Made by a program: the position numbers and the translations under genes
The notes under the pieces: model-generated
The model's input: the letters and a program-made list of their open reading frames with translations, nothing else
Databases searched by the model: none
What the model was told of the DNA's origin: nothing
Assembly (NCBI GenBank): GCA_044892505.1
Contig: CM097883.1
Span: forward strand, 226,052,001-226,116,000
DNA from: Schmidtea nova
Lineage: Eukaryota
Reading direction: 5' to 3'
Length of the DNA stretch: 64,000 nucleotides
Shown here: positions 33,200-58,019 of the stretch, one piece after another
Position numbering within the stretch: the first letter of the stretch is position 1
Layout of the letters: the number at the start of each line of letters is the position of its first letter

Positions 33200-34115
33200 C
33201 AGTAAGACCCTGTTTAACGCGGTGGATACGCTCCATCAAAGTAGAGCGTAATGCGAAACAGCGCTAAACGAGGCTATCTTAACATGTATATAATGGGGTT
33301 TGGGGAAGTTGGATAGAAAATTCGTTAGGCATTAAATTTAAAAATTATGATTGTTTTTTATAAAAAGAAAACCAATCATTTATTTATTACAAAAATAAAT
33401 AACAATATAAACGAATATATTATAAAAACAATTAAATTTTTAGTCAGTCAGATCATTCAGTCTATTCTGTGTTTCCAACTTTCTGTGTTTTTGTCAAGAA
33501 AGCATCTAATGTAGTTTGCGTTTGCCTTTTGCGTTTTGTTAGAAGTTGTTGTTAAGAGGATAAAGCATATTTAACACCCCGTCTTGCTTTTGAACTCTTG
33601 TCAAAATTTGGATCATTTTTAACAAATTGGTCCATAATTTCAGTTATAGTGGTCAAACTTCTTTTTACAAACGCCATCGAAAGTTCTTTTTGATCTTCTT
33701 CGAAATCACTATTTTTGTTTTCTTCTTGCGCAGTTAATGCTTTGAGCTCATCATTAGAAAAACTAGCTGCTATTTCTTGAACTATTTCTTCGACGTCTTC
33801 CACGTTTACCTCATCTAAACCGGTTTGTTTCGCTAATTTCACTATTTCTTCACTATTTCATTCATATCGACAAAGTGTCCAATGTCTTCGCTCTTACTTA
33901 AATCCGGCCAAATGTTCTTCCATATTCCTTTCAAAGATCTTTCTGTCATTTCATTCCAAGAAAGGTTTATATTTGCTACAGCATTCATGATATTGTAGTT
34001 TTTCCAAAATTCTCTTATTGATTGTTTTTCTTCTCCGTCTGTTTTTTCAAACATCTGCTTAAATGTTCGCCTCAAATAATAAGCTTTAAAATTGGATATA
34101 ACGCCTTGGTCCATT
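33200..34115 (-). mobile_element. 3' part of a Tigger/pogo transposon
   Basis: TA then TIR cagtaagaccctgtttaacgcgg at 33200; MDQGVISNFKAYYLRRTF..REFWKNYNI..IWKNIWP and EDVEEI..SNDEL..DPNFDKS are Tigger DDE C-terminal motifs. Confidence 0.88.
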
Positions 34116-34891
34116 TGTAGGATCTTTTGGATCACAACTCCTTGATAACCATTTACATCTCTTTGTAGGTCCTCTTTTTCTTTGATCAACTTTTGTCGTT
34201 CCGCTTCCTCTTTCTGTCTAATACCTCGTATTTTTCCATTTATCATCTGTATTTGCCACTGTGCTTTCTTTAATTCTTTTGCTTGTTCCCGAATAAATCG
34301 TTGGCGTTTCCGACTCCATTCTCGGTTTGTCTGCTCTTGTCGCCTTTTCCGCTCCAATTCCTCTTTTAATTCGTCTATCTCTTGATACAGTTTCCAGTCC
34401 TCGCTGTACGCTGTCTTTTTGATTATCTCTTTGGCTTCTTTATACACTCGCTTCGACTCTATTTTCCAATGTCTTGCTTGAGCTTTGATAGCTAATATTT
34501 TTACTTCCATCTTTTCCTCTTGTTTCTCTTTCTCTTCTCTCCTCGCTTTCATCATATTTTTATAATGTTCTGCTTGTTTTCTCATCATCTGATAGATTTC
34601 TTCTATCTTTTCTCGATTTCGTAAATTCGTTTTCTTTAATTGCTTCGTTTGTGCGATAAGCTGCACTATTTTCTCGTTTTCTTCTCGGAGGTGTTGTTTT
34701 CTTATTTCGACCTGATGTCGGCAGTCTTGTAGTTCATCCCATTGGAATGTCATTCTATCATTTAATTCTTTAGTTCTTTGTTCTACTTCTACTTCGCATC
34801 TCCTTTCGATATCTCTTTCCACTGATTCTTGTTCGTTCAACACTTCTCTTCTCGTTTCGTCTTCTGTTACACGTTCTTTTACGTTCTCCAT
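33842..34891 (-). CDS. Chimeric ORF: ~255-aa coiled-coil retroelement cargo fused in frame to the Tigger transposase C-terminus
   Basis: Open 349-aa frame; E/K/R/Q-rich helical region switches at ~34115 to MDQGVISNF. Confidence 0.7.
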   Translation of the reverse strand: MENVKERVTEDETRREVLNEQESVERDIERRCEVEVEQRTKELNDRMTFQWDELQDCRHQVEIRKQHLREENEKIVQLIAQTKQLKKTNLRNREKIEEIYQMMRKQAEHYKNMMKARREEKEKQEEKMEVKILAIKAQARHWKIESKRVYKEAKEIIKKTAYSEDWKLYQEIDELKEELERKRRQEQTNREWSRKRQRFIREQAKELKKAQWQIQMINGKIRGIRQKEEAERQKLIKEKEDLQRDVNGYQGVVIQKILQMDQGVISNFKAYYLRRTFKQMFEKTDGEEKQSIREFWKNYNIMNAVANINLSWNEMTERSLKGIWKNIWPDLSKSEDIGHFVDMNEIVKK

Positions 34892-34977
34892 TCTGCAATT
34901 TACAAATTTACACTTGTTATACTATATGTTACAGTTAAGTTGCTTTTTACACTTTATTTACAGGGTCGTTTGCTCTA

Positions 34978-36390
34978 CTATTCCAACCATCCTTTCGTTG
35001 ACTTCGTGTTCAACATTGTCGTGCTTGTCTTCTTTTCGACCTCTAACTGCACATATAGGTTGTCGTCGTACAACATTTCCCATATTTTATGGTGTACTAC
35101 GAATTTTGGTTCTCCTGTTGCTAATGAACATTCTGTGTTTGGTCTTTTGTACGCTTCGTGCTTTACATCAACTTTGAATATTCTCACTATCGTTTCTCTC
35201 GAATTTTTGATTCTCATTATCGCCTTTGTTTCTAGTGGGCATTCCAGTATATCGTCATAACCGCCTTTACATAACGCAAAAAATAATGACACATGCGTTT
35301 CCTTTCCTGGTCCATCTCCATTTGGATAAATTCTTATTCTGATTTTGTATCCATTTTTCCACAGATAGAATGTTGGACTTGTCACTGACACTTGTTTTCC
35401 TGCTCTTGCTGCTGTGGACTTATCGTTGAAGTTCGTGATTTTCCATACATACGGTGCAACAGGTAGGTTTTCTATATCCTCTGTATCTCGAATTCATATT
35501 TGATGTCGTACGTTTATTTCTTTTACTAAATTCTCTATGACCGTGATTTTGCCCATCATTTTCTCTCTGGTGAGTTCGAATTGTTCTCTCGTTTCCAGTA
35601 ACAGTTCTGTCATTACCCTCTGGGATTCGATTTCCTTTTCTAACTTCTGTATTGTTTGTTCCATCTCACTCAGATTCCCTGTCAACATCTCTGCGTGTTG
35701 TACGGTTTCCGTTTCTAGATGTTCTTTCGTCTCCTTGCTTGTTTTCCTTGCTTCGCATCCCTGTTTGCTCCATACACATTTTCTTGGTTTCGATTCGCAT
35801 TGTTCCCAATGTTTTCGTAACATTACTTCCTCTCCGATTCTGCAATTATTTGGACAAATTCCTCTGAATTCCACACATACTTTCTCTTCTGATACGTTGA
35901 TATGTTCTGTTTCAATTATTCCTTTCGTTTCCTTTTGTTCGCAATGTTGACATTCGATTATCTCTGCTTTGCACTCGTTCTTGTGATTTTCCCACTGTTT
36001 GATGGTTGTCGTCTGTCGACACTTTTCGCATATTGCTTTCTTGTTCTCACATTTCTCCAGATGTTGTGTTAGTTCGATTATTTGTCCTTTCCATTCGCAT
36101 GGTTGATTTATACATTCTGTTTTTATCTTCCAGATCTTCTTTTGGATTGCTTTGTCTGGTTTCGTTTCGTTGATTAGTAATTTATCGTCACACTCCGGAC
36201 ACTTTCTTGTCCCATCTTCGCGGATTATTTGCAATATACACTTGGTGCACATTCTGCATCCACATTCTGTTTGTCTCGGTTTTAACAGTAAGTTTTTACA
36301 CTTTACACATGTCACGGTTACTATCCATTGTCGATTCTCTCCTCCCAAAATTTCGATTGTTTGGTAATCTGCTTCACTTTCTGCTCTCAT
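34978..36390 (-). pseudogene. TRAF-family protein (RING, TRAF Zn fingers, coiled coil, MATH) with a single in-frame TGA at 35494
   Basis: CVKCKNLL..QTECGCRMCTKC..CPEC; CINQPCEWKG..HLEKC; YVWKITNF..SPTFY..GYKIRIRIYPNGDGPGKETHVSLFF..KGGYDDIL; the two ORFs share a frame. Confidence 0.93.
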
Positions 36391-36480
36391 TCTACAACAA
36401 TAGATACATCAACTCTCATATTTTTGATTTTTCTGGTTTTTTTATTTACACATATCTACACAATTTTCCGCTTTATTTCA

Positions 36481-36831
36481 CTATACATTCTCAGTCGAAT
36501 CTGGCTCTGGATACACGTCTATCTCATTTACAATCCAGTTTGTCCAACTATCTGGTATCTCTTCCTCTTCATGTCTCGTTAACCGATTAATTTCCTCTGC
36601 TTGCCAGTCATTTACTTCGTTTAACATTCGGTTCTCATTCTGTAATTCATTTATCTGCTGTTGTTGAATCTCAATTTTGTTCATCGCCTCGAAATTACAG
36701 TTGTAACTCTCGGTTAGTAGTTGCGTCTTTGCCGTCAATTGACTCTGTAATTCGTTTACTGTTCTGGTTAGCAGGTCACATTGCACTTTCCATCTAATCA
36801 TCATTGATATTTCTGCAGTTTCTTGGTTCAT
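36481..36831 (-). CDS. 116-aa coiled-coil ORF of unknown function
   Basis: Open frame with heptad-like Q/E/N-rich segment; followed by AATAAA at 36477-36472. Confidence 0.5.
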   Translation of the reverse strand: MNQETAEISMMIRWKVQCDLLTRTVNELQSQLTAKTQLLTESYNCNFEAMNKIEIQQQQINELQNENRMLNEVNDWQAEEINRLTRHEEEEIPDSWTNWIVNEIDVYPEPDSTENV

Positions 36832-36953
36832 CGTCTTCTAGATTATATACATCAGTCTCTTTTTCTTGTTTTTATGTTTTATAATATTTATACCCATACG
36901 TATACGGTTATGCATTGGTTTTTACAATATTATTTACACTCATATTCCTCCCT

Positions 36954-38929
36954 CTATACCACTATCACTGGTTTTCCTTCATAACACTTCTCATCTTCGA
37001 TTTGTTCCAACATTTCTTTACATTTCGATCTTTTCTTCAGTTCTTTTCGTATTTCCTCTGGTAGTTCTATGTTGTAATTCATGACCTTTATATCTGGCCA
37101 TCGTTCTGCTATGGTCTTATTTCTCATGCCATACATCCAGCATACTACCATAATCGTTATCAGTAATATACACGCTATAAATACTCCAATGCTGATTAAT
37201 CCCATTATCGTTTTTCCAATGCTCTTTTTCTGAGTCTCGCTTTGGTTTATCATTACGCCATATTGACCTTTCCATTCCGCTTCCCATTGTTCGTATAGTT
37301 GTTGTCTCCGTCTGATTTCTTCGACTACTTTCTCTGGTTCCCATCTTTCTTGGCGGTTTGGTATTGTTTCTTCAGTCTCGGTTTGTTCTCTCATCTGACT
37401 CAATTCTTTGAATTCTAACTTTCTGATTCTTCTTTTTATTGTTATATTCCTTGGCGTATAATAGGTTTCACACCTCTCCTGTTGGTTTCCTTGTGTATCT
37501 ACTGCTTCTATTGCACATACTTCGTATTCTGCGTTTGTTTTTAGCCTCTGCATTTTTACTTCAATTATTTCCCCTTTGTTTCCTGCTGTCTTCTGGCAGT
37601 TTTGTGGAGACTTTCCTACATTATTTGGCATTAATTTCCAACAGATTTCTAGGACCTTCTTATGGATCTTCCATATTAGCAAGGTTGTTGACTCCGGTTT
37701 AACTTCGTTTTCCGTCGTCCTCCCCTCTGTTGTTATCCATTGAGTTTGTTAACCGTTGATTATCGTTGTTCTTTTTGACTCTTTCCTCTTCTGTCGGCTT
37801 CTTCTCATTTCAATTACTCTTGTTCCGTTGATTTTCTCTGGCGTCTTGTATAATTTGCACTCCAGACTTCTTTGTATTATTTCTCTTCTTCTTCTGATCA
37901 TGCAAATTTTGTAGGTTTGTCCGACTTCGAATCCATCTAGCTGAAATGGGATTCCTTGTTCTCTTGTTTTACATTGTGGTATTATGTTGCTGGTTGATAT
38001 TCCGAGATATTTTCTCCAACACATTCCAATCGTCCTTCGATTGACGTTTTTTATCTCCACTGTTACCACTTCGTTTGCCATTGTTTCATTGTCTTGCTTC
38101 TTTCTTTTCGGGAACTCGATTATCTCCTTTGGTTTAAACACTTTATACTCGCTCGTTCCTTGTCTATTTCCGTTTGCTGCTTTCTCATGAGACATAGTTC
38201 ACATACTTTATTCGTCTCTATTTCGGTTATTTCGATTTCTTCATTCATCTCCGACTCTCTACTTTCCTTTGTTTCGCTGATTCCAATTACTTCATTGTTT
38301 CGTCCCCAACATCTTCCATTCGTTGTTCGTTGATCCTGGATATTTAGTAACGTCATCACGCTGATGTCTATTTCTTCCTCAATTCTCTTAATTAGGATTA
38401 ATATTAATGCTACGCATATCAATTCTGTTTGGAATGTTAATTTTCCCGCTGGATTTTTGGTTATTCTTTCTTTCTCTGTTCGGTTTCCGGTTACTTCCTC
38501 TGCTTCAGTTTGATTCGTCTGTTTCCTTGATTCCACTTCTGTTCTTTTCGTTGTTTCTTCAATTCTTTTTCCAATCCATTTTTGTATTCTCAGCGCTTCT
38601 GTTGCTTTGAACAATTGACATGAAGTTACTTGAGGTGCTTTTGGTTCTCCTCTCTGCTTTATTGCGCATATTATGTATGACTTTTCTTTTTCCAATACTT
38701 TGATTTGGATGATATCTCGTTTCAAATCCGTCAATATACACTTTAGCGTTTCGTTCTTTCTCATATTCTCTTTCCAGCATATTCTTTCATATACTTCATC
38801 TCCTCTGATTATTTCCAGCGTGACGTATTGTTTCTTGGCTTCTCCTTGTCCGTTGATTGTTATCAATATCGCAAGACACAACATTTCTGGTCTCAAAAGT
38901 AGACTTCCTGTTCGTTTTTCATAGTTCAT
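36954..38929 (-). pseudogene. Membrane protein region: signal-like segments, 4 FN3-like Cys repeats, TM helix, cytoplasmic tail
   Basis: Repeats share CW(K/R)..C..L/F-E..Y-x-I/V-C-x-I..C-x-x-Y/F; TM IMGLISIGVFIACILLITIMVVCWMY; one frameshift and one stop. Confidence 0.6.
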
Positions 38930-39439
38930 ACATTCATCTTTTATTCCACTGTTTTCTCGTTCTTCGGCTTCTTCTTTCTTGTCGTTTCTCGTTGGTTTTG
39001 GTTCTTCCTGTCTTTCTTTTCTATCATCTTCTGTTCCTCTTTTATCGTTGTCTTCGTTGTTATCTTTGTTGTCTTCATCTTTGTCCCCACCTTTGTCATC
39101 GTAATCTCTGTAACCACCCCTGGTCCTTTCAAAATGTCGTCCTCGACATTAATTTCTTTAATCATCCTTTCGTACGCTTGAACTGCGAGTGTGCTAAACT
39201 CAAATTCTTGTATCTCCATATCTTTCGATGGTTCTACGCCTTCTCGTCTACTTTGGCTGATCGTTTCCTTGGCATCTGCCCACTCATTCACATACTTTTT
39301 GAATAAGTCTCTCCATCTTCCCATTCGTTCATGTTCATGGATTATTCGTAAATCTCAAATCTCTTCTCTTCAAGAACTCTTCTACTATCTCTGGCTTCTT
39401 GTGTCTTAATAACGCACCTCTGATACACCAATTCTGATT

Positions 39440-41189
39440 TTATTCCATATGGTCGTTAATCCTGAAGACCGGTTCCTTTGTGATCGAATTTATCCATGTT
39501 AGCAATGCTTTTGTTTTCTCGAGGTCGTGTATCTTTACCACTAGACTGAATTTTCCCACGTTATTTGCCAGATATTCGATCTCATCTTGTTTCTTGATGG
39601 ACTTTATGAACTTGATCATCTCGAAGTTATTCCACTGTATCGCAATATCCATGATAGAATTATTCTTTCCATTTTCCCCTTCGATTTTGGCTCCTGCTTC
39701 ATATAATTCGTTTAGCACTTTCCACTTAGTCTTTTTCCTTGCTGCGATTACCATAATTGTATCTCGATTGTCATCAACCGTATTCATCTCTGCTTCGCAT
39801 TTGATCATTACCCTTGCTATTTCTATAGCCTAATTTTCTTTCTTTCGACGTAATGCCCAGTGTATCGGTAGTCTCCCATCCTTTGATAATAGGAATGCCA
39901 CTGGCATTTGATTTTTGATCGTTTCTATGTCGCTCTCGTTATAGTCTCCTTGTGCTTATCTGTGCACTTTCTCTGTAATTGCTCCTAGTATCTCCAACGA
40001 GTTTTTAACTTCTTTAACTTCTGATATTTTTTTCCTGCGCTTTTGCCACGATTGCGCCTAATCCTTCTTGATAATCTGCCTTTGCATTGAACAACACTGC
40101 TTTGCTCTTTATTCGTGTCTGCATCTGTTTCATTCGTTGATCCTGGTACACTGCTTGTCTGAAGAATTGTCCGTATTTCAATGCTTCTACCAGATCCTTA
40201 TATCGCTTGCGTATTTCTTTGTGCTTCTATTGGATGTCATAGAAATGTTCGAAACTCATATCCGGATTCCATTGTTTGTCACACCATCTCCTGATTAATC
40301 CGAATAATTCTTTCTTTCGGTCTTCTAATTTGTACTACCTTGGGTTTTCTATGACCCGTAGCGTATCTCTTGATATCAACGCCACGAGAGTTTTCGGATC
40401 GTATGTTACTTCTAGTAGATGTTTCAGTAACGCATTTTATTTATTTGTAAACACTTCGTTACAATCTATGACCCATGAGTCTCCTTCTGGTCGTTTCCAC
40501 ATTAGCAATATTCTCCAGGTTTTACTGTTCTTTACTCCGATTGATTGTCTCATGATTGGGCCTCTAGTTAACTCATCGAACTCCCACGTGGCATTTTCCG
40601 TGATATATTTTAACATTCGGTGATTCGCTCTCTCGATTGCATGAGAAAAGAACGTTCTTCCTTCTTTATCTCTTGTTGTCCAATTTGATCTGGTGTTCCC
40701 GAATAGCTTGATTATCTCATCGTTTCTCCCATGAATTGTTATCATCATGAGTGGGGTAATTCCTTCCTAATTTACTTTGTCGATTTTTCCTCCACCTTCG
40801 AGGGTTATTTCCATAATTTCTTTCACCTTTTCGTTCCCACCGTGCTTGATTGCATTGTGCAGCGCTGTGTTACCGTCTTTATCTTGTAGACTCAATGTTT
40901 GAGGAATCTCTTCTAGTACCGTTCTTGTTATCGGATGCGCTGTTCTGTCTTTTGCGTAATTCATTACATTTTTCCGCACTTCTGTCAGTATATTGAAATC
41001 AAGCCACCATTTCCATTCCGGTATTAATTCTCTGGTCTTCTTTGCCAGTTCTTTGATATCTACCGTTTCCTTTCGGTTGTTCTCTAGACTTGTTTGTGGC
41101 TTTTGTTGTACTCGCAACATATTAATTCTCGCCGTTTGTGATCTCGTGATTACTCGTTTTTCTGGTAATAGAGTCGCTGTCTTCGGTAT
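39440..41189 (-). pseudogene. Two ankyrin-repeat clusters continuing from integrase
   Basis: QDKDGNTALHNAIKHG, N*EGITPLMMI, RDKEGRTFFSHAI; KDGRLPIHWAL, VDDNRDTIMVIAA, NGKNNSIMDIAI. Confidence 0.85.
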
Positions 41190-44100
41190 TTTCTTGCATC
41201 GACATGCGTTTACGTATATTGGTCTCACCAATGGATTGTTTACTAGTTTCACCGTACATTATTTTCATTTACCGATGTTATTTCGTATGGCCCTTTGCCT
41301 GGTCGTTGCAGTTTCTTGATTGTACCGGGTATTATCTCTGGTGTCTCTATTATCACCCAATCTCCAATTTTTAACTCATGTGCCTTCACATTCTTTTTCT
41401 GGTCATGCAAATCCTTGTAACTTTCTTGATAGAATTTGATGTTGAGTTCTGCCGTTTTCCATATTTCTTGCATTCTTTCTTTGAACTTAGTAACATAATC
41501 ATCAACCTCCATGTACTGTGATAATGGTGGTTGATATTCCAAGTCGATCGGTAAGTTACAATCTCTCCCGTACATCAATTAGAATGGACTTAGCTTCGTT
41601 GCCGCATGTATTGACATTCTGTATGCCATTAAACACAAGTTTATTTATTCGTCCCAGTCAGTCTGATGTTTACTGACGTAATTCGATAACATGAGTATCA
41701 ATGTTCCGTTGAATCTTTCTGTTTGACCGTTCGTTTGCGGATGGTATGGGGATGTTCGTAATTTCGCTATTCGGAAGTAATTCGTAACTTCGTCTAATAT
41801 TTCACTCATGAAATTTGTTCCTTGATCCGTTAGGATTTTCTTTGGTGTTCCGTATTTGCAGCATATCTCTTCCACCAATATTCTCGCGACTGTTTTTGCC
41901 TTTTGATCTGGTATTGCGAACGCTTCTGGGAATTTCGTTAGATAGTCCGTAACTATTAATATATACTGATTTCCTTTTAGGCTTTCTGGTAATGGTCCAA
42001 CTACATCCATTGCTATCGTCGACATTGGTTCTGCAGGAATTGGCATAGGTTTTAATGGTGTTTTCCACTTCGTCCCGACGTTCTTTCTTGTTGCACAGAT
42101 TAGGCAATTCTTTATCCACTCTTTTACGCCATCTCCCATGGTTGGCCAAAAGTATTTTTGTCTCAGTCTCCCGATTGTCTTTTTTGCTGACATATGTCCA
42201 CCTAGTTTTCCGTCGTGGTACTGAGTCATGATCTCTTTTCTTCTATTTGCAGGTAAGCACATCAGTCTCCTTTCTCCATCTTTTATTAGTAACCATCCTT
42301 TTTCCATCACGTATCTATGTTGATACTTTTGCATATGTTCGCGAAATGCTTGATTCTTGCTGAATATTTTCATCTCCTTTTCCTTCATATACTTGATGAT
42401 AAATCCCAATTATTCATCTTCATGCTGGTCTTTCCTTAACTCACTGAAATCCAAATCCTCAGCTATTAACACGCATATCTTGGTAGCATCCAGGTTTATC
42501 AACTCTGGGAATGTAAATCTTGACATGCAATCCGCGCTTGCATTTGCTTTTCCTGCTTTGAACTTTATGAATGGCGAGTATTCTTGTAACTGCATCGCCC
42601 AACGCATCAATCTACTTAATGATTCTTTATGCTGTCCTAACCATTCCAATGGTTGATGATCTGTCGTAATATATATTTCATGACCCCACAGCAGGTATTT
42701 GAAATGCTTGATTGCCAATATTATTGCATAAGCTTCTCTTTCTGTGACCGAGTAATTCTTTTCGTGCTTCCTAAATGTTCGACTGTAGTATTCAATTACT
42801 CTTTCCTTGCCTTCTTCATCAAATTGGCCTAATACTGCTCCTGCTGCGTATCCTCTTGCATCTGTTGCCAACAAAAATGGCTTCTTGAAGTCCGGATGGA
42901 TCAATATTGGTGCTGTAATCAGTTTGTCTCGTAATGTTTCGAATGCTGCTTGTTGCTCTTCTCCCCATACAAACGACACGTCCTGTCTTACTAATTCTTG
43001 CATTGGCTTCGATATTCATGCATAGTTCTTGATGAACTTTCTATAATATCCACACAATCCAAAAAACTCTTGTATTTGCGTCACTGTTTCTGGTGGTGGA
43101 CATTCTTTGACTTTTTCGATATTCCTTGGATCTGGTTCTTTTCCTCTTGCTGATACAATGTGACCTAAGAAGGTAATTTTCTCTTTTGCCCAATCGCACT
43201 TTGACGGCTTCAATTTCAGCTTCCATTGTCTCAATTTCACGAACACATTTCTGATGTCCTGTAGATGATCTTCAAACGTTGCGGAATAGATCAATAGATC
43301 TTCGATATACACGATGCATTGTTTTATGCCATGGGTTAGAAAATTCATACATCTCTGGAATGATGCTGGCGCATTTGTTAGTCCAAACGGCATTTTCTTG
43401 AATTGGTTCAGATCTCGTCCGATTGTAAATGCTGTTTTCTCTTTATATTCGTCTTTCATTTTGATCTGCCAATATCCGCTTTTTAAATCTAGTGACGTGA
43501 AATAGGCTGCTCCTTGTAACGTCAACAGCATCTCAACAGAATCTCTTTTTGTAACTGCGTTTAATCGTCTGTAATCAATACAGAATCTCTGAGTTCCATC
43601 CTTCTTTTTCACCATCACCACTGGAAATTGCCAGGGTGAACAACTGGGTTCGATGACCTCTGCATCTAGCATCTTTTGTACCTCTTCCTCTGCCACTGCT
43701 TTTTGAGCTTCTGCCAGTTTATATGGTCGTAATGCGATCGACGTTTCATCCGTTAACGGTATCGTGTGTAATGTTACATCACATGTTCCCAAGTCTAAAT
43801 CTGATCCTGCGAATATATCTTTATACTCCATCAACAACTTCTGTAGTTTTTCCTTTTGTTGTTCGTCTAACAACACACTGTCTATTTTCCATGGTAATTC
43901 GCCACTACTTTTCTCGTTCTTATCTGGTATTTCGATCTCGGACATGGGTGTCAATTTACCCAATCTCTCATTCTCGTATATTATGTTGTCCTCCTCGTCA
44001 AAATTCACCAGATTGATCGGTATCTCTCCTTCTTGATTTATCGTGACCAATTCTCTGGCCATTGGTAATTCCTTCTTTGCTTCGAAACTTTTACTTGGTT

Positions 44101-44638
44101 CGAATATCATTTCCCCTTTTATTGTTGAATCGATCTTCACATAACACATCATTTCGTGTCTTGCTGGTACAACTATTTGTTCCGCACTTGCTACTTTGAC
44201 CTCTATTCTGCAGATTTTTCCAGTTCTATCTTTTAACTTCATTGCTCCCAGGTCGATTACTATTTCCTTGAAAAAATCTGGCATCAGGTCAGTTCCAATG
44301 ATACATGGTACACTCAGCGATGGTATTACAGCGATGAACGTATCAATTTCCGCATTTCGATGTCTTATTTTTACAAGCCATCGTCCGGCTACTTCCACTG
44401 TTTCTTGACTGCATGCGATTACATGAACATTAGTCTTCTCAATCTCTCCTTTATTTTTCTCTGGTATATAGTTGATATCGATTGCCGAAATATTCGCGCC
44501 TGTATCGATCATAGCTTTGATTTCTCTTCCGTTTATTTCTACGGTTGTTGTTAGGATTGGTCCTGTACTTGTAGACATAACCGCTATCGTGTGCGTGTCT
44601 TCCAACGGGTCTACACTTCTGCATCTTTTACCTTGCAC
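41190..44638 (-). pseudogene. pol: Ty3/Gypsy pol: protease, RT, RNase H, integrase (inactivated)
   Basis: AMIDTGANIS; RFCIDYRRLN, LDLKSGYWQI, MPFGLTNAP, YIED (YxDD mutated); LATDA, NYSVTERE, TDHQPL, NASADCMSR; HHCC, MDVVG, TDQGTNF, QTERFN, GPYEI; four in-frame stops. Confidence 0.97.
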
Positions 44639-46946
44639 TCCTCCGGGATTATCGGGTATATACTCGTCATCGGCATCATCTGCATCACATTCGGTTTCGT
44701 TTTATACATAGGTTCGTTGTACATTGACTGGGGTGGGGCACTGTATCTCCAATTCTCAACTGCACTCTTTTCGGTATACTGTGGAATCTGGTTTATATTC
44801 GCTTGTCCTCCTTGATCGTCATCGTCATCGTCATCATTGCTTGAATTATCTTGCGTTCGATATCCTCTCACTCTTTCCCATAATCCATTCTTTTCTTTCT
44901 TTAGTCGTCGTCTTGCTTGTTCGTCTTGCATTATCTTTTTGAATTTCTTTCCGACATTTTCATTTGTTCCTTTCATTTTTGCGAGTATCTTCAACAATCT
45001 CTTTATCCGATGTATGTTCTTTGAATGTCCATGTAACACCATTGTTTTCGCGAGGAATGGTAAAGATCCTACTACTATTTTCCAATTCACTTTCTTTTCT
45101 GTCTTGTAGATAACGAAGCACGATAACATTTGCATTATTATCACTCTGACGATTTGTATTATTAATATAACACCTAGTATTCCAGCCATCATTTGTCCGA
45201 ATATCAGGAATCTTCCCCAAATTGCCTTCATCATATTCTCGGTGGCCTTCTTGAAATGTGCCGGTGACAATAGTAGTTCGTAATTCGGTCCTTCTCGGTA
45301 ATTCGTTCCTCCAGTTATCGTTACAATATTTGACAGTAAAGCTTCTCTTCTAGCCGGAAATAGTATATTCTGTCTCGCTGCTTCCAAGTCTTTTAGACTG
45401 TATATTCCGTTGTTTGATACATCGATATCGCTAAATTGTCTATCTTTTGACAGATGCATTAGCTCGAATTCTCTTGGTGCAGGTACTTCTGTTCTTGCTG
45501 GAAACATAACTCATTTGTCATCTGGTTTCTGATAAAGCGGTCCATACACATTACTGCAATTGAATGGATTCGGTTCAAACCCTGGTGGGTTGATGATTCT
45601 CGTCACCGGTTGAACGTATCGTACTTTTCACTTGTAGTCGATTTCTAACTCATTTGTACATGTTCCGGGTTTTAGTTGCGTTGTTGCTGCTAACGGCACG
45701 TGTGTCTTTTCGCAAATATACACATACATTGCCTCTCCGACCACTCTTCCGAAATTTCCTTCTCTCAGTGGTCCTAATGCATTGCACTATCTGGATTCGT
45801 AATTGCCATGGCTAATTTTGTCTTCAATATTTCTCGATTCAGTATGCAGTCGTTGTTTATCAGATCGTAATACACCTTTTGTAATGAAGCTTGTCCTCGA
45901 TGGAATAAGAAATCCATTTTATTATTCACGTACAAGTGTAATTTGATATCCATTGTGTCGATCTTGGGTTTCGCATTCGGCACTTCTTGTTTTGACACGT
46001 ATATTCCTGGGTAGTTCGTTTCGTATACCGTTGTACTACTCTTAAGGGTTGCTTTCCCTTTTATGAATCTCATTCCCACGTCCTGATTCGTGGTTATCAA
46101 CACTGTTGGTGTGGCTCTCATCTCTATCCGTTTCTCTTCTCGTTCTGGTTTCAGTTGTCTCTGATTTTCCAGTGCTTCCTTGAGATGCTTTGCTCTAATT
46201 TTATCATCATCTTCTTCTTGGAACGTTTTTCCTTGAATTTTGTCGAACTTTGCTCCTTGTAGCAGTTGCAATTGGCAATCGTTTATTTTCGATTTATACA
46301 CCAAGGTTGACATTCCCGTTTGACACATACTTCTGTTGATTTTGCACATGGATAACGTTTTCATTTCTCCTGTTGTTGGGTCGAAGAATGCTTCATAACT
46401 TTTCAATTCGACTATATACGTATCCATCACGACTAAGTTACTTGCAAGTGTTCCGAATATCGGGTAGGTTTCTCCTTGACAATAGCCTTCTCCTCCGGTA
46501 ATCCGTCCAGCTACATAATACGTCTGTTGCAGCATCTTTCCTGGCTTTCCTTTTATCTTGATTTTGTCTCTTGTTGTTACTTCTCCATGTCTAAAAAATG
46601 CTTCGCAGTCTTCTCCTTGTAACAGGATGGATTATCTTTCCGTACCTAGTATGACAATTGCTGAATAATGTCCTCTCCCACAATAAAATGCGAATCTCGT
46701 CTTCTGTACTTTGCATTCGTTAACCATTGTTTTTACCAATTCTGCTTCCTGGTACACATGATACCATTGTTCCTTTTTAATCTTTTTCAATTCTACTGGA
46801 GTTGCATCTTTGCATTGCTCAGTACCTCTCAACGAGTACTTTTCTCCTAATTTCATTTGATCACAGTCAAATACCTCAAAGGTTGTTACACCTTCCGTGC
46901 TTAACAACCATACCAACATCATCATGATTATCGAGTTTAAATTCAA
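44611..46946 (-). pseudogene. env: Envelope: class III (chuvirus/herpes gB-like) fusion glycoprotein
   Basis: Signal-like IIMMMLVWLLSTEG; FEVFDC..YSL..C; CKVQKTRFAFYCG; GYCQGETY; NNKMDF..DC; GEAMYV..C; GIYSLKDL..ILFP; TM MAGILGVILIIQIV. Confidence 0.8.
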
Positions 46947-47054
46947 CGTCGATCTCCCATTTCCTTGCATTGTTTGTCTATACTCTATTTCTCTCAATAC
47001 TCCTTCGAGCTTCTTTCGCATAACATTTGAACCATCTTTTGTCTGATTTTCTTT

Positions 47055-47501
47055 TAAAAACTTCTCCCATCCTCCTTTCCTGAGGATATATGGTTCGATT
47101 TTCTTCTCGATAATCATTGTCGTAGTTTTAATATATCTTCCAATCGGACTTGATTTCGGACTTCCTCGGCTTAGCGTTAACAAATTGTATATCGTATATG
47201 AGATTGCCACTAGATATTTGCTGTCTGTTTCTGGTCCATTAAGTAGCCTTCTTATCAACATTGTGGTTCCTTACGAATCTAGATGATTTGATTTTGTTTT
47301 CGCTTTTATCAATTCTGGCATAATCAGTGCTATTGCATTATGTAGCATCTTTTCCTTTGTACTAGGTTCTTTTATCCGCCACAGATTCTTTAATTCTGGA
47401 TCGATTATCGCTAATACATTCATTATCGTTTTGGTGAGCCATTCCTCTCCTTGACAGACTTGATTCTCTTCTTTACCTCTGATTTCTGCAATTTTGTCCA
47501 A
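47055..47501 (-). pseudogene. Bcl-2-like domain in frame upstream of the env signal peptide
   Basis: BH2-like IEPYILRKGGWEKF and BH1-like RLLNGPETDSKYLVAISY at nearly Bcl-xL spacing; one TAA at 47271. Confidence 0.7.
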
Positions 47502-47519
47502 TTTCCTTAAACATATTTC

Positions 47520-49380: not shown

Positions 49381-51495
49381 TCACTTCTGGTAGATCTTCT
49401 GTTTGTAGAAATGCTTCTCTGGCAGTTTCGTCACTCCCGAAATCATCTCATTTACTTTATTGAACAATCTTCCTACTTCTTCTTTTACATCATATTTGAA
49501 TCGAAACACGTGATCATTTTGCATGATCACCAACATTCCTCTTTGTTTAATTCTCACTTCTACCTCTTGATTCGCTTCTTTCTCTGCTTCTGTTTCTTTT
49601 TCCGTTTCTTTTTCTGCTTCATCTTTTTGATTTTGCTCTGCGGTTTCTACTTCCTGATTCACTTGCTCTTGTTTCTGCTCTTCGTTTCTTTTCTTTTCAA
49701 CTTCAGCTTCATCCGATTTATCTTGCTGCTTCCTCTTCATCATTGCTCGTATCATATTTATCCTTGGATTTCCCATTTTTAACTGTTGTAGCCATTGTTG
49801 TCTGACTTGTTCTTCTTCTCGTCGTATTCTGGCCCATTCTTGATTGTGTCTCTGTTGACTCTCTTTATTCTCTCTTTCAGCTTCGTCTTCGATTAATTGG
49901 ATCATATTTATCTTCGGTTGAGCAGCTTGCTGGCTCCCTTTTGCCATATTTTCGATTATCTCGTGTAATCTGGATACTTCCTGCCTCAATTTGGCTTCTT
50001 TCATACTAGCTTCGTTTGCATTGTTATTCGGGTTGTTCCGTTGTTGGTTCTGATTCACATAGCTTGGTCGATTTACGTAATTCTGTCGATTTCCGTAATT
50101 CTGTCGATTTCCATTGTTTGACCAGCTTCTCTGTTGATTACACTCTCTTGACATGTGTCCAGGTTTTCCACATGTGTAACACGTTTTTACGTAACACCGA
50201 TTCTCTGAATGACCCTTTTGTCCACACATTTTACAGGCTACGTTCTGAAAACAATCTTGTTGCATATGTCCACTTTTCCCACACGTCTGACATTGTCTAT
50301 TCTGCCTGTTGTTGTAACTGGTTCCTCCATTTGCGTTTACTGTGATATATCCTTTATTTTTCCTCTCTGGTGGCTCTTTAAGCAATCTCTGCAAATGGGG
50401 AATACTCTGGTTCATATTTCTTTTTCCTTGTTCTTCATCTTCTGTCGTTTTTTCCATTACTGCCATTATCCTCATATCGTTCATTGTCATATGCAATTCG
50501 AACAGGTTGGCTGCTTCCAACGCTTCGTCTACCGTTTTATATCCTTTGCATCCCACTTGTGCTCGGATATCAGGTCTCCTGAGGCCTCGTACAAATAGTG
50601 CTGTCATTAACTTCTCGTCTACTGGGCTTCCTCTGTTGAATGCTAGCTTAGCCAACTTCCTTAATTCGCTTGCATACACTGCATTTGACTCGTTTCTCCT
50701 CTGTTTTCTCGCTGAGAATTCATCGAATGCTTCATTCAAACTTTATTTATTCCAAACTTCTGTTGGAAGAATTCCTTTATCGCTTCCCACGTTCTGGGTG
50801 GACTGCTTCCAGATCTCTTTTCAATATACAGATCCAATGCGCTATCTTTCAAGTATAGCGGGATTCGATTTGCCAACGTTTCTGCACTCAATCCGCATAT
50901 GTCTACAAATATGCCAAATTCTTTTAGAAACGTATCTAACCTGCTGGCGTCTCCATTGAATGGTTCGCCTTTGAATTTTTCTCTTAAATCCTCTCTGTGA
51001 TCACTCATCCCGATTCCACTGACTTGGAATGTTGTACTAGCTCTCTTTGTTTCTAGTTCACCGCTTGTTTCCGGGTTGACTCTTCTTCTTCACTGATCTT
51101 TGATTCGTTATCCCTTGATTCGCTGCTTGTACTGTTTTCACTGACTAATTCACTGTCTATCGTTTCTACTTCGGTCCGTACTTCTGGGTTCTCTGGGGTT
51201 TCTCTTTGGTTTTCTTTATTACTCGAATTATCACTGATCTCTACTGGTTGATTCTTCTGCTTCTTCGATTCTTTTGTTATTCTTGCATTTTTCGCTGCTT
51301 TTCTTTCTTTTTCTGTTAAGATTGGTATTACTCCTGATCTCGTTTCGCGTTCTGCAATTTTGTTGCACTACTCAACTTCTTGTATTTTCAACTAGTTGTC
51401 TACTTTGTTCTTGCTTGGCTTCTTCTTCGATTTGTTTCCTTTGATTGTTCTGACTGCTAGATTGCTTTGAATTGCTTTGAATAATTTGTTTCCTT
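49381..51495 (-). pseudogene. gag: Ty3/Gypsy gag with three CCHC zinc knuckles
   Basis: EPFNGD..FLKEF..LKDSALDLY; RKQRRNESNAVYASELRKLA..LFVRGL; CQTCGKSGHMQQDC, CKMCGQKGHSENRC, CYTCGKPGHMSREC; frameshifts near 51030 and 50740. Confidence 0.93.
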
Positions 51496-52328: not shown

Positions 52329-52640
52329 ACCCACTCTTATTCACTTTCCCTCATTAATTCCACACTGTATGCATACTTTAATACTACTAGGCCACGTAAT
52401 CAGCTTTACTCGCATTATCAATTCAGTGGTGCGTACCTTTAAATTCCTCATTATCACCTCGGTTTCTTTCAACCGTTATTCATCACTATTATTCACTATT
52501 CATTTCTACTATTCATTATTCATCTTCATTATCAATTATTCCTCTCTACTATCCGGATAGTTTTTATGCTTCATTTACTTTTCATTTGCCTCACTTCGCT
52601 GTCTTTCTCGTGAGCTTTCACTCAATATCCTATTTCGAAC

Positions 52641-52793
52641 GAGAACTATGCTCACAAATGAGAACTATGCTCACTGACGAGAACAATGCTCACTACGAGA
52701 ACTATGCTCACTACGAGAACTATGCTCACTACGAGAACTATGCTCACTACGAGAACTATGCTCACTACGAGAACTATGCTCACTACGAGAACT
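52641..52793. repeat. 18-bp tandem repeat gagaactatgctcactac (~8.5 copies); 64-bp repeat x2 at 52861-52970
   Basis: Seen directly. Confidence 0.92.
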
Positions 52794-53501: not shown

Positions 53502-53990
53502 TTACAAGTACACTGTTATTCTTTCAGAAACGGGAAGGTTGCACATAGGACATCGTTCATTGATTTTACATTCACAACAAAATCGAAAATGCCCACACGG
53601 CAGTAACATTATTTGTATTGTGTTCATTTCACATATGTAACACGTCAGATATTGTCTTGTATATTCTGTTGTTATTCTCATCCACTCGTCATATTTCGTT
53701 GTTAGTTGTTGCTCTAGCCTGTGGCACTCGATGTTCATTGCAGGGTTGTTTAATCGTTCCCTCTACCATTTATATCGTGTTGCTGTATCAATCGTGTTCT
53801 TATTCTCACTTATGCTCATCATCATTTCGGCTCTTTCTGTGTTGTTTGTCGGTTCATGGTATTCTATTGCCTCGAGTCGTCATAGCTTTCCCATTATCGT
53901 TTCCACTGTTTCGTCGTTTGTCTCGAAAAACATTTGCATTTCTTTTATTTTGTTCTCCATCTCCTGAATGAATTTCTATTTTTTTCACTG
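53502..53990 (-). pseudogene. IAP-type C-terminal RING gene, ~160 aa, two in-frame stops
   Basis: LTCYICEMNTIQIMLLPCGHFRFCCECKINERCPMCNLPVSERITVYL; frame extends upstream through TAG and TGA; AATAAA right after the stop. Confidence 0.8.
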
Positions 53991-54863: not shown

Positions 54864-55424
54864 TTATTCGATTAATAACACTTCAGGATTCATCACATCC
54901 AATAATTGTCTTTCGGTTAAGCCGCTTAAAAAGTCGACTTCGATCCCCAGCTTCTCGGCATAGGCTCGCCTTTCCCGACGCCTATTGGCAACCAATCGAT
55001 TTCTCCTTTTGGTGCGCTTAGATCCTTCTGATCTCTGCATGCTTTCCGGAGCGTCTGAACTCGGACTTAAATTCATATCTGTCTGCACGCCCATCGAGAC
55101 GCTAGTAGACTGTACCCATCGATCGAAGGTGCTGGTTCGTATGAGCGGTCGTAATTGTTGCTCAATGAACTCCTTAGTCGATGCCCCCAAGTAATTCATC
55201 AATTCTAATTTGACGACTGCTGTCTCTCGTGCCTGCTCGTCCGCTGTTCTTTCAGCACGATATCTGGTCTGTTGGATGCTCTTTACTCGTTCCGGGTGAA
55301 ACCAAGTCGTCTTTACCAACTGGTACTCGGCATCCAACTGCCTTAACCGACCTTCGAGGGCCTTGACTCGTTTCCGAGATTCCTTTGCTACCTTCCGGTA
55401 GTCTCGATTTGCCACTCCGTGCAT
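54864..55424 (-). CDS. Intact 186-aa accessory ORF B (coiled coil, basic NLS-like tract)
   Basis: ATG preceded directly by acceptor cttttcctttag; stop overlaps AATAAA; GC-richer than flanks. Confidence 0.65.
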   Translation of the reverse strand: MHGVANRDYRKVAKESRKRVKALEGRLRQLDAEYQLVKTTWFHPERVKSIQQTRYRAERTADEQARETAVVKLELMNYLGASTKEFIEQQLRPLIRTSTFDRWVQSTSVSMGVQTDMNLSPSSDAPESMQRSEGSKRTKRRNRLVANRRRERRAYAEKLGIEVDFLSGLTERQLLDVMNPEVLLIE

Positions 55425-55661
55425 CTAAAGGAAAAGTATGGGGAATTATTACGTTATCGGTCACGCAGATCTCGTGGGTTCCCTCCTTTTTGTACTATTC
55501 GACTCTTTAGTTACCCCTTGTTACAGTCTACACCAAGTTTATCAATTAAACTACTTCTAGTACGTCATTTTCACCACATGCATTCAAACCAAAGAGCATT
55601 TAACACATCATTTATTTATTAGCTATGACACACAAAATTTTCATTTCTGGTTCGACAGTTT

Positions 55662-56226
55662 CTAGAAGAAATCCACTAGATCTTGATCGCAAATTCTATC
55701 ACCCAATCTTTTTCCGTCTGTTTGATAGATTTCCGGACACGGGTCCCAGCATAGGTCGTCCTGAAGGGTAAACACCTCCCATAATTGGCTTCCATCTCCT
55801 CCCTGACGTAGATTCTTATCTCGGTTTCTTGGGGGCATTGGAGTACGGTTGGAATTCACCGGTACGGATGCATCTAGGTTGATCTAGTAGAAAGTAACCC
55901 AACTGCCGGAATTCCTGGCCAAGCATGGTGTTGAACGAGAGTATCCACGGTGACGTAGCCTGCTCATTTTCGAATTGGATGAACCACCTGGCAGGTCTCT
56001 TTGTCGCAGCATCCTGAGGCACTGGCCACGATGGGTCTCCCTCCCATCGTATTCGGAGCTTGAAGGAAAGTGTGGCTACCCGCGCCGCGGCATCCACTTG
56101 ATGGCGCATCCACGCCCGTAGATGGAGTTCAGCGGACTTCTTGACCCATCCGGGAGTCGAATTTGAGTTGATAAATGTCGGCTCCTTGGCATGACGGCGT
56201 TGTTGGTATACTCTCCTTCTCGTCAT
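55662..56226 (-). CDS. Accessory ORF A, unknown, probably one gene split by a frameshift (56226-55816 and 55859-55662)
   Basis: ATG preceded by ttattcag/aca; upstream donor ccag/gtaata at 56350; AATAAA at ~55620. Confidence 0.5.
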
Positions 56227-57299
56227 TGTCTGAATAAGATAGTCAAAGTTGTTCGGTTATTCTTTAGATTGCCAATCACACATTCACTCATCATTCACCT
56301 CACATCATAACACAATATTAATTTCATTTTCAAACCACAACAAATATTACCTGGACGTCATTTCTCTTGGTGCTGGTCATTTTTGTCATTCAACTATTCT
56401 AATCTAATGAGTGACCATATTTTATTGACTACGGACCTACTCATACTCACGCATTCCAAATCAGCGTTGGCACAGCGTATCTCATCATACTCCAGACTAT
56501 TATTACTACACCTGATCGCACTCATTCATTCAACTGTTATTGATCTATATTGCTTAAAATTTTACTTCTGTCTCACATTCACTGGTTTCTCATTCATACA
56601 AATGTGTCAGGCATTCTCTCTCGGGGCAGCGAGAGTGGCGAAAAATGATTTCTTGTTGCGTTGTAGGGGAACAGTCGGAAATAGAACTCTCATGGGGTGT
56701 TTTGGGTTAGTGCTTCTCGATTAGTGATTTCTTCCTAGTGCTACGTGTGACTAGCAAGGTTGCGCGAAATCAGCCCATAACGGTACCCTCTTTATCGTTT
56801 ACTTCTGTACCTGGTTTAACTCCTTCATGTGGCACTCAACTGGTCATTACGAGGTCTCAATTTTATCACCTTGCCGTTCCGGTTGTCATTACAGGTTCCC
56901 CTTGAGTCTTCATCATCATTACGAATTGTTTTTACTCTGGTAGTAGCTATCCTACCCTCAAAATTATTTGTGCCGCACAATTTGCCGATCATAATATTGA
57001 ACTCGTCCATTCATGTGAATCCCTCCCCCAAACTGATTTTAGTAAACCTATTAGCTCGCCGCATCAGCCCTCACATGAAAATGTGTTGCGCTGAGAGGCC
57101 CGAGAATCCCGTCAGATCGAATGACCTTCGGGACAAACATAATGGATTTTGATCATGAGGGTTTACAATAAATGAAAAATTCTAAATCAACGTACCTTTT
57201 ATTTTCCTCGAACTGTTCAATTTACAGTGATTCGCTAACGATCGTTATAGAGAAAAATGACTCTTAGTGAGAAATTTTACTCTCGGTAAAAATGACATG

Positions 57300-57353
57300 A
57301 CTACTGATTTTGACTGCTGCTTATATAGTAATTTGTGTTGCCGGCCAGCCAAT
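57300..57353 (-). promoter_or_regulatory. Candidate LTR-type promoter
   Basis: CCAAT 57349-57353; minus-strand TATATAAG 57327-57320; Inr-like TCAGT ~57305; AATAAA ~57200. Confidence 0.5.
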
Positions 57354-58019
57354 CAGAATTTAGTGTGCATGCAGATATTGTGTGTATTTCATTTTTAACG
57401 TTTGTCGGTACTTGCTTCATCCAGTGAGTTTTCTGTTTAATCAACCGTGACTTTATTTTATTAATTTATTTTATTTTGTAGATTTGTGCTGGTTGATCCG
57501 CCTACTCGTTGTCAATTTTGAGTAGCTAGTTTTTCTGTGACTTCCATCGTTCCGCATGCGTAAGTTTTTGTGATCGATATTTTATTTAATCTATTGTTAA
57601 TCCTTTCAGGTTTTGTTGTACACCTGTCAAAATGCCGACTATTTGGTTATTGATTTGATTATTTCTTGTTATTTATTTGTATTTATTTAATTTTATTTAT
57701 AGTTCATTTCAGATTTGCTTGGCCCAACACACTATTTGATTGAGACTTTGAATTTTACTAACATCAAATCTCTGAATATTTAAGAGACACATTCTGAGAT
57801 ATTTTCGAGAAAGCGTCTTGAACTTAAGTAGTGTAATGTGTCACATCTGGACCACTTACCTCCCTTTTTCCCTCAGAACTTACGATCGAATGACTAGTGT
57901 GTGTAAACTAGATTTGGTGGGAATTAAGTGTGTGTACATGAACTTTCGCGGGAATATATTATATGTGTAAATTAACATTAGTTTGACTTTTAAGTGTGTG
58001 TAGACAAATTTTGACGAAA

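What the first reader, a model, noticed from the sequence alone, without database searches (positions are those of the whole stretch)
34978..36390. Complete RING-Zn finger-coiled coil-MATH TRAF encoded by a retroelement
All TRAF modules are in order, with only one nonsense change, in an element otherwise riddled with lesions. A mobile TRAF could act as an activator or dominant-negative of TNFR/TLR-type signalling, and could help explain TRAF family expansion in the host lineage (inference).
Basis: partly seen in the sequence, partly recalled or inferred. Interest (0 to 1): 0.75.

Follow-up and report, generated by a model that had tools for sequence, protein, structure and literature searches.

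The report
Broken TRAF cargo in giant retroelement
A giant, repeated jumping element, likely from a flatworm, carries a complete intron-free copy of a TRAF cell-signalling gene; this copy is broken by a stop codon, and the family likely uses the gene to dampen host stress and cell-death signals, extending a cargo already reported for such elements.

Summary
The TRAF is real. It lies on the minus strand at 36390-34978, with a RING, five zinc fingers, a coiled coil and a MATH domain in order, and one in-frame stop just before MATH. It is a separate gene 3' of the polyprotein of a decayed, 3'-truncated, env-bearing Ty3/gypsy element of at least 23.7 kb, built like the planarian Burro elements.

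It is not unique to this copy. In four runs of one study its depth is 40-530 times that of the unique flank and equals that of its element neighbours. It shares the element's A-rich bias, keeps all 28 zinc ligands and groups with triclad TRAFs on a long branch.

The single stop does not show special preservation: 2.5-3.2 lesions are expected, P = 0.17-0.30. Its MATH is of the TRAF1/2/3/5 type, not TRAF6, and lacks the usual serine patch.

MATH/TRAF-C cargo in Burro is published. I found no description of a full-length TRAF as a 3' accessory gene. This scan already noted the same cargo on other DNA (e1-9312700, e1-9203678). A role in host TRAF expansion is untested.

The parts
34978..36390 (-). 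Intronless TRAF accessory gene, 470 codons, one in-frame stop
36181..36309 (-). RING with eight cysteines (Cys in place of the usual His, as in triclad-type TRAFs)
   Evidence: motif in 3 of 128 TRAF hits (P0038 Dendrocoelum, P0082, P0110), the His form in 22 of 128
35695..36114 (-). Five TRAF-type zinc fingers, all 20 ligand positions present
   Evidence: Cys/His positions, alignment, TRAF6 N-terminal match E 9e-14
35500..35694 (-). Coiled coil (TRAF-N), short
   Evidence: one predicted helix over residues 229-297, pLDDT 76-89
35494..35496 (-). In-frame TGA between the coiled coil and MATH
35038..35451 (-). MATH / TRAF-C domain, TRAF1/2/3/5 type, serine patch replaced
   Evidence: Pfam E 9e-24; PDB ranking; first patch position is Ser/Thr in 96 of 100 scorable hits, His here
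36392..36407 (-). Splice-acceptor-like site ending 1 nt before the TRAF ATG; AATAAA 56 and 87 nt upstream of the ATG
36484..36831 (-). Accessory ORF, coiled-coil-like, 116 aa, acceptor-like site before its ATG
34130..34891 (-). Accessory ORF, charged coiled-coil-like, cut at its 3' end
   Evidence: family depth reaches 34165
33555..34123 (-). DDE_1 (pogo/Tigger-type) transposase remnant joined in frame; marks the truncated 3' end of the retroelement
   Evidence: Pfam DDE_1 E 4e-9; junction read; depth and skew drop
36957..39354 (-). Polyprotein tail: FN3-like stretch, then one hydrophobic segment (lead only)
   Evidence: Atlas hits 0.83-0.88 to fn3 + TM clusters, below the 0.9 mark; no Pfam fn3 hit
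39443..41000 (-). Ankyrin repeats after the integrase
   Evidence: Ank_2 E 2e-5, 1e-3 and 9e-4 in three frames, each below cut-off
41250..44600 (-). pol in Ty3/gypsy order: protease, RT, RNase H, integrase; broken
   Evidence: RVP 1e-9, RVT_1 2e-30, RT_RNaseH 2e-38, Integrase_H2C2 2e-20, rve 3e-11; lesions
45090..46935 (-). env-like mononegavirus-type fusion glycoprotein between gag and pol; broken
   Evidence: Monjiviricetes_fusion E 5e-7, 2e-19 and 9e-22 in three pieces
46998..47519 (-). Bcl-2-like helical region (weak support)
   Evidence: no Pfam or PDB sequence hit; low-confidence model, pLDDT 42, whose top 9 Foldseek rows are Bcl-xL/BAX at E 0.5-1.0
49384..51089 (-). gag with CCHC zinc knuckles
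   Evidence: zf-CCHC E 8e-11; three knuckle motifs in the translation
53502..53960 (-). 5' accessory ORF ending in a RING (zf-C3HC4_3; IAP-type by recall), two stops, no BIR found
   Evidence: E 5e-8
54864..56226 (-). Two 5' accessory ORFs of unknown family (ATG 56226 and 55424), each after an acceptor-like site
57100..57845 (-). Probable 5' end: candidate TG start at 57845, TATA-like box at 57327, donor-like site near 57195
   Evidence: strand skew reverses near 57900; motif scan; no partner LTR found

Best explanation
This is an intronless TRAF gene, broken by one stop, inside a decayed, truncated and repeated Burro-like giant Ty3/gypsy element; it was likely captured long ago from a triclad flatworm host and, in intact copies, likely acts as a scaffold that dampens host stress and cell-death signalling. 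Shown: the architecture, the stop, the position 3' of the polyprotein, the high depth shared with neighbouring element DNA, the element-like base bias, and acceptor-like sites before the accessory ATGs. Inferred: (1) capture through a spliced host mRNA; (2) purifying selection while the family was active; (3) expression as a spliced single-gene RNA from the element's own promoter; (4) trimer formation through the coiled coil and MATH, alone or with host TRAFs, with altered peptide specificity, favouring survival of the cell that hosts the element alongside the Bcl-2-like and RING cargo; (5) this copy is dead and has decayed at the same rate as the rest of the element.
For: Domain order gag - Bcl-2-like - env - PR-RT-RH-IN - ankyrin matches the published Burro layout (PMC6431247, section 7). 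Depth over the TRAF is 40-526 times that of an identical single-copy flank contig and 0.96-1.13 times that of the adjoining 36.5-41 kb element DNA in 4 of 4 runs. A diverged contig (80 differences in 574 nt) lies on 35572-36148, and one contig joins 35048 to 37489. A content is 45% and 41% in the TRAF halves against 39% in PR-RT and 43% in gag. All 28 zinc ligands are kept on a branch of 1.8 changes per site. The TRAF groups with triclad-type TRAFs at 98/94 and 93 and shares their RING motif (3 of 128 hits). Acceptor-like sites precede 5 of 6 accessory ATGs against 28 of 626 ATGs, and 5 of 8 accessory ORFs in four related elements against 83 of 1104 ATGs. Planarian TRAF knockdown raises cell death (PMC7586133, passages), traf2-1 acts as an inhibitor of infection pathology (PMC4993586, passages), and a Burro1 IAP is reported to protect stem cells (second-hand, PMC13465017).
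Against: No function, transcript or splice junction was observed. The four runs are contigs from one study and at most three samples, and may include the window's own source; summed depth is not a copy number. The TRAF is a long, compositionally unusual row, the mixture-model support of 93 is under the tool's mark of 95, and the MATH-only tree leaves it unresolved. The host is inferred, not named by any tool. No LTR pair was found. None of 79 integrase-related metagenome loci carries a TRAF, though only a few extend far enough 3'. The acceptor rule was set after I had seen the window's sites. Loss of the serine patch could equally mean a decoy or a dead binding site. Whether other copies share the stop is not known.
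Confidence: 0.6

Rival explanations
1. Decoy or dominant-negative: the element's TRAF joins host TRAF trimers or holds their partners but cannot engage receptor tails, and so blocks immune signalling against an env-bearing element.
For: The serine patch of MATH is replaced (His where 96 of 100 hits have Ser/Thr); its role in receptor binding is recalled, not tested. The branch is very long. The element has env.
Against: The RING, all zinc ligands and the central MATH strand motif are kept, which a pure decoy need not keep. Triclad host TRAFs also drift in this patch.
Confidence: 0.2
2. Neutral passenger: a host TRAF mRNA was captured by template switching and amplified with the element, with no selection on it.
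For: Lesion density in this copy fits neutral decay. Related elements carry other cargo in the same 3' slot, a DEDDh-type exonuclease in 3 of 4.
Against: All 28 zinc ligands and the frame survive about 1.8 changes per site and full adoption of the element's base bias. The gene has its own acceptor-like site.
Confidence: 0.1
3. Domesticated or mutualistic module: host and element share the TRAF, and element-derived copies feed the expanded host TRAF family.
For: Planarian MATH domains are expanded (121 domains in 99 transcripts; PMC6109357, passages). traf and ankyrin mRNAs are piRNA targets (PMC6824462, passages). The Burro1 IAP is a precedent (second-hand).
Against: The four triclad-type TRAFs sampled group together without the element's TRAF (97/98; 97). 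No close relative was found among 128 TRAF hits (best full-length identity 33%). This copy is broken.
Confidence: 0.08
4. A host TRAF locus placed next to retroelement DNA by misassembly or chance insertion.
For: No listed contig spans the whole stretch or the 3' junction. No LTR closes the 3' side.
Against: Depth is high and continuous from 34006 to 46000, diverged copies exist, the gene has no introns and shares the element's strand and skew.
Confidence: 0.02

Closest known systems
Burro1/GYPSM1 and Burro2-4 giant Ty3/gypsy elements of Schmidtea mediterranea, and the Burro-like element of Dugesia tigrina (PMC6431247, section 7 read in full; Jurka 2007 and Grohme 2018 not seen)
   Same: Over 20 kb; gag with three CCHC knuckles; Bcl-2-like region then mononegavirus-type env between gag and protease; PR-RT-RH-IN; ankyrin repeats; accessory ORFs; TRAF-C/MATH cargo.
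   Different: There MATH_TRAF_C is a domain inside ORF1 (S. mediterranea) or in an upstream accessory ORF (D. tigrina). Here a whole RING-zinc finger-coiled coil-MATH TRAF is a separate gene 3' of the polyprotein. No BIR or ubiquitin-like domain was found here, and no LTR pair.
Burro1 B-IAP (Lee et al. 2026, Dev Cell; not held, known only through PMC13465017 passages)
   Same: A host cell-death regulator carried by a Burro element; this window also has a RING accessory ORF.
   Different: That cargo is BIR + RING with a demonstrated function. The TRAF here has no functional data, and the RING ORF lacks a detectable BIR.
Triclad host TRAF2-like proteins: Dendrocoelum lacteum TRAF-4 (P0038), Dugesia japonica TRAF2-like A (P0035)
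   Same: Length and layout. The Cys-for-His RING and the long third zinc finger motif are shared with P0038 (P0035 lacks the RING region). Both are among the nearest tree neighbours.
   Different: Only about 30% identical, long branch, element-like composition, serine patch lost, intronless and mobile.
Vertebrate TRAF1/2/3/5 (PDB 5h10, 1czy, 1kzz, 4gjh)
   Same: MATH sequence (E 1e-25 to 3e-22) and predicted fold.
   Different: Shorter coiled coil, altered peptide-binding patch. TRAF6 is a much weaker MATH match.

Membership tests
TRAF family | C-terminal TRAF-C/MATH domain of the TRAF type | tested here: met
   Pfam above cut-off, PDB sequence and fold matches
TRAF family | Coiled coil (TRAF-N) directly before MATH | tested here: met
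   predicted helix 229-297
TRAF family | N-terminal RING plus TRAF-type zinc fingers | tested here: met
   8 + 20 ligands; TRAF6 N-terminal match E 9e-14; Pfam RING hits below cut-off
TRAF family | One open frame giving a full protein in this copy | tested here: not met
   TGA at 35494-35496: a TRAF pseudogene in this copy
TRAF family | Trimer formation, receptor-tail binding, ubiquitin ligase activity | not testable with these tools
   only a monomer was modelled; serine patch altered
Ty3/gypsy LTR retroelements | gag, then PR-RT-RH-IN order | tested here: met
Ty3/gypsy LTR retroelements | Paired LTRs and target-site duplication | tested here: inconclusive
   no pair found; the 3' end is cut by a DDE_1 transposase remnant
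Burro-like giant elements | Internal region above 20 kb | tested here: met
   at least 23.7 kb of skewed sequence, 57845 to about 34130; the share that is 5' LTR is unknown
Burro-like giant elements | Mononegavirus-type env between gag and protease | tested here: met
Burro-like giant elements | BCL2-like motif before env | tested here: inconclusive
   no sequence hit; weak fold hits, top 9 all Bcl-2 family
Burro-like giant elements | Ankyrin repeats and accessory ORFs | tested here: met
Burro-like giant elements | Triclad host; RT clade shared with published Burro sequences | tested here: inconclusive
   host inferred from TRAF kin; no named Burro sequence among 120 listed pol hits, so no RT tree was built
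Burro1/GYPSM1 itself | MATH_TRAF_C and Ubi2/SUMO-like domains inside ORF1 before BCL2; BIR domain | tested here: not met
   the only TRAF match in the window is at 35035-36348; no BIR or ubiquitin-like Pfam hit in the ORFs scanned. Not filed as Burro1.

The most novel reading that the evidence does not exclude
A planarian retroelement family runs a complete survival-signalling kit (full TRAF, RING, Bcl-2-like, ankyrin and an FN3-type membrane protein) from separately spliced RNAs. Its mobile TRAF is functional in the host and has seeded a real share of the planarian TRAF expansion.
Probability: 0.15. Interest if true: 0.8.

Novelty: new variant of a known kind. Interest (0 to 1): 0.4.

Why it matters
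Full-length TRAFs are signalling hubs. One carried as a free-standing gene by an env-bearing retroelement would put these elements beside complex viruses that manipulate TRAF pathways. It gives a testable source for part of the unexplained MATH/TRAF expansion in planarians (PMC6109357) and for the piRNA targeting of traf and ankyrin transcripts (PMC6824462). It also warns that transcriptome counts of planarian TRAFs may include element copies. The surprise is limited: TRAF-C cargo in Burro elements is in print, and this copy is dead.

Tried and rejected
Preferential preservation of the TRAF in this copy: rejected (P 0.17-0.30).

Own-genome search: no genome is held, so copies could not be counted or aligned.

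RNA: no RNA holder listed; this says nothing on expression.

Close TRAF relatives with flanking DNA: none in viral contigs (3 pattern matches, 0 confirmed) or metagenome contigs (53 matches, 0 confirmed). 0 of 79 integrase-related loci hold a TRAF.

dN/dS: only 4 of the 40 variant rows shown fall in the TRAF (2059 rows not shown), too few to use. Whether other copies share the stop remains open.

LTR pair: none found. No Rfam match in 30000-60000 and no tRNA gene. The bacterial promoter scan was at chance level and does not suit this host.

Bcl-2-like region: no hit by phmmer, Pfam or the Atlas; fold hits are weak.

MATH-only tree (129 rows, quick search): unresolved for this row. Full-length trees used 28 of 128 TRAF hits (those whose N-half aligned over 120 residues or more) plus P0109. 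One search then dropped P0109, P0129, P0099, P0088 (long rows) and P0002, P0125 (near-duplicates).

Lee et al. 2026 was not held. Grohme 2018 and Jurka 2007 were not seen, and no supplements were read; any of these may already show a full TRAF in Burro2-4 or relatives. My paper searches were made; none listed a paper describing a full-length retroelement TRAF, judged from listings and the passages read.

Full report
Observation. On the minus strand a frame starts at ATG 36390 and ends at 34978, with one in-frame TGA at 35494-35496. Read with X at the stop, it gives 470 residues. Pfam finds MATH above cut-off (E 9e-24, 1e-21) and a RING below cut-off (E 0.001). Solved structures match both ends: MATH to TRAF1, 5, 2 and 3 at E 1e-25 to 3e-22, to TRAF4 near 1e-15, to TRAF6 only at 8e-8 to 2e-6, and the RING-zinc finger part to TRAF6 at 9e-14. 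The sequence shows eight RING cysteines and five zinc fingers with all 20 ligands. The model has mean pLDDT 79.7 and a helix over 229-297, and the Foldseek rows printed are all TRAF chains. The stop falls at residue 299, between the coiled coil and MATH, so this copy cannot make a whole TRAF unless the stop is read through.

Is one lesion remarkable? A codon-based frame path finds 21 stops and 11 frameshifts in 14.0 kb of polyprotein under three penalty settings. That predicts 3.2 lesions in 1.41 kb (P of 1 or fewer 0.17), or 2.5 against env+pol alone (P 0.30). Six of 32 one-lesion stretches are as long. The TRAF in this copy has decayed like the rest.

Surroundings. A block with strong strand skew runs from about 57900 to 34100. 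On its minus strand lie, in order: two unknown ORFs, a RING ORF, gag with CCHC knuckles, a mononegavirus-type fusion glycoprotein, protease, RT, RNase H, integrase, ankyrin repeats, a tail with one hydrophobic segment, a short ORF, the TRAF and another coiled-coil-like ORF. The region before env has no sequence hit to Bcl-2. A low-confidence model (pLDDT 42) returns Bcl-xL/BAX as its top 9 rows at E 0.5-1.0, which is a lead only. The tail resembles FN3 + membrane proteins at Atlas scores of 0.83-0.88, also a lead. At about 34123 the last ORF runs in frame into a DDE_1 transposase remnant. No LTR pair was found, so the copy is 3'-truncated.

Copy status. Four contig-level runs hold the stretch; they come from one study and at most three samples, and may include the window's source. 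Flank contigs match with no differences at depth 11-32, so the organism is in the runs. Summed depth over the three TRAF bins is 40-526 times that value, 0.96-1.13 times that of the adjoining element DNA, and about 0.4 times that of RT. The tool warns that summed depth is no copy number, so I read this only as a repeated sequence amplified with its neighbours. A contig with 80 differences in 574 nt covers 35572-36148, and one joins 35048 to 37489. The TRAF has the element's A-rich make-up: 45% and 41% A against 39% in PR-RT and 43% in gag. A misassembled host locus is very unlikely. Whether other copies carry the stop is not known.

Origin. Among 128 TRAF hits the best matches to the N-half are P0110, P0082 and P0038 (E 3e-32 to 9e-29; the next is 3e-19). 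P0038 is Dendrocoelum lacteum TRAF-4 and P0035 is a Dugesia japonica TRAF2-like protein; P0110, P0082 and P0109 are unnamed. The Cys-for-His RING motif occurs in 3 of 128 hits, these same three, and the His form in 22. In a 30-row full-length tree the window's TRAF joins these proteins and P0109 at 98/94 but lies outside the group of four (97/98). With other long rows removed and a mixture model the join has support 93, under the tool's mark of 95. The MATH-only tree is unresolved. The row is long and compositionally odd, so capture from a triclad host is likely, not shown. Keeping all 28 zinc ligands over about 1.8 changes per site implies selection during the family's active life (inference).

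Expression. Five of six accessory ATGs, the TRAF's among them, have a pyrimidine-rich YAG 0-6 nt upstream, against 28 of 626 ATGs in the element (binomial 1e-6, inflated because I set the rule after seeing the sites). The sixth has a YAG but fails the strict rule. Applied unchanged to four related intact elements from metagenomes, the rule passes 5 of 8 accessory ORFs against 83 of 1104 ATGs (1e-4); L001 passes 0 of 1. A TATA-like box at 57327 and a donor-like site near 57195 exist. Spliced single-gene RNAs are the likely route; cis- versus trans-splicing is not resolved here. Those four relatives (46-55% identical in integrase) carry other 3' cargo, an RNase_T exonuclease in 3 of 4, and none of the 79 loci has a TRAF. 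The 3' slot looks like a changeable cargo bay.

Mechanism. I commit, at about 0.6, to a TRAF that was functional cargo in active copies and favoured survival of the host cell. Planarian TRAF knockdown raises cell death (PMC7586133, passages), traf2-1 behaves as an inhibitor of infection pathology (PMC4993586, passages), and a Burro1 IAP is reported to protect stem cells (PMC13465017 citing Lee 2026, passages; the original was not held). The MATH serine patch starts with Ser/Thr in 96 of 100 scorable hits but with His here. Its role in receptor-tail binding is recalled, not tested, and points to changed partners or a decoy. Planarians are reported to lack TLR orthologues (PMC7958881, passages), so 'TLR-type' fits poorly.

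Comparison with what is known. PMC6431247 (passages, section 7 in full) describes Burro elements with gag, MATH_TRAF_C, BCL2-like, env between gag and pol, ankyrins, BIR and accessory ORFs. It places MATH inside ORF1 in S. mediterranea and in an upstream accessory ORF in D. tigrina. The window's element works like these and is best called Burro-like. It is not Burro1: the only TRAF match in the window is the 3' gene, and no BIR or ubiquitin-like domain was found. No named Burro sequence was among the 120 pol hits listed of 1241, so RT membership is untested. PMC8532177 (passages) mentions Burro as a PIWI target and has no TRAF passage.

Host expansion. MATH is expanded in S. mediterranea (121 domains, 99 transcripts; PMC6109357, passages), and traf and ankyrin mRNAs are piRNA targets (PMC6824462, passages). 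Neither passage links this to retroelements. My sample holds only two named triclad TRAFs, and they do not descend from the element's gene in the trees, so the expansion idea is open and unsupported here.

Novelty. Ten paper searches listed no description of a full-length TRAF as a 3' accessory gene. Grohme 2018, Jurka 2007 and Lee 2026 were not seen and no supplements were read, so it may be in print. The scan has noted the same cargo on another piece of this genome and in another genome, and the acceptor pattern several times. I had written down both readings before those look-ups, and the notes are not independent support. Verdict: real, a new variant of a known kind, interest 0.4.

Noticed in passing
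L004:8592-9923, L005:9043-10374, L006:10617-12107: Related intact elements with polyproteins of 2200-3400 aa carry an RNase_T (DEDDh-type) exonuclease as a 3' accessory ORF, with an acceptor-like AG directly before the ATG.
   Followed up: partly
L004:6861-8249, L005:7268-8743, L001:9958-11781: Accessory ORFs of 460-607 aa with no Pfam match. The L001 ORF follows the polyprotein stop directly and in frame, so readthrough is possible.
   Followed up: no
L004, L005, L006, P0166: Extra aspartic-protease-like domains in the polyprotein: a second one after the integrase in L004, L005 and P0166, and two or three Pfam stretches in L006.
   Followed up: no
window:36957-38198 (-): The polyprotein ends in an FN3-like stretch and one hydrophobic segment, like a receptor stub; Atlas lead only.
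   Followed up: partly
window:54450-54470 (-): A G-rich motif that may be a tRNA primer-binding site (tRNA-Pro type by recall, untested). If so, the 5' LTR would be about 3.4 kb and contain two ORFs.
   Followed up: no
window:51888-52255 and 52639-52793: An 86-nt degenerate tandem repeat and an 18-nt x 8.5 array in the non-coding region before gag.
   Followed up: no
window:32300-32410 (-): Host exon with a KH/STAR-type (Quaking-like, by recall) motif in single-copy DNA next to the element.
   Followed up: no
window:20455-27539: A region bounded by 91-nt inverted repeats (95% complementary, 6.9 kb apart) and filled with 15-31 nt tandem repeats; likely a foldback-type DNA element.
   Followed up: no
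window:14725-15811: 96-nt inverted repeats at 99% around 895 nt; likely a young DNA transposon.
   Followed up: no
window:10859-11778: Two identical 300-nt copies 620 nt apart; a recent duplication or an assembly artefact.
   Followed up: no
P0109: An unnamed 298-aa TRAF fragment shares a motif just before MATH with the element's TRAF (1 of 128 hits) and may be another element-borne TRAF.
   Followed up: partly
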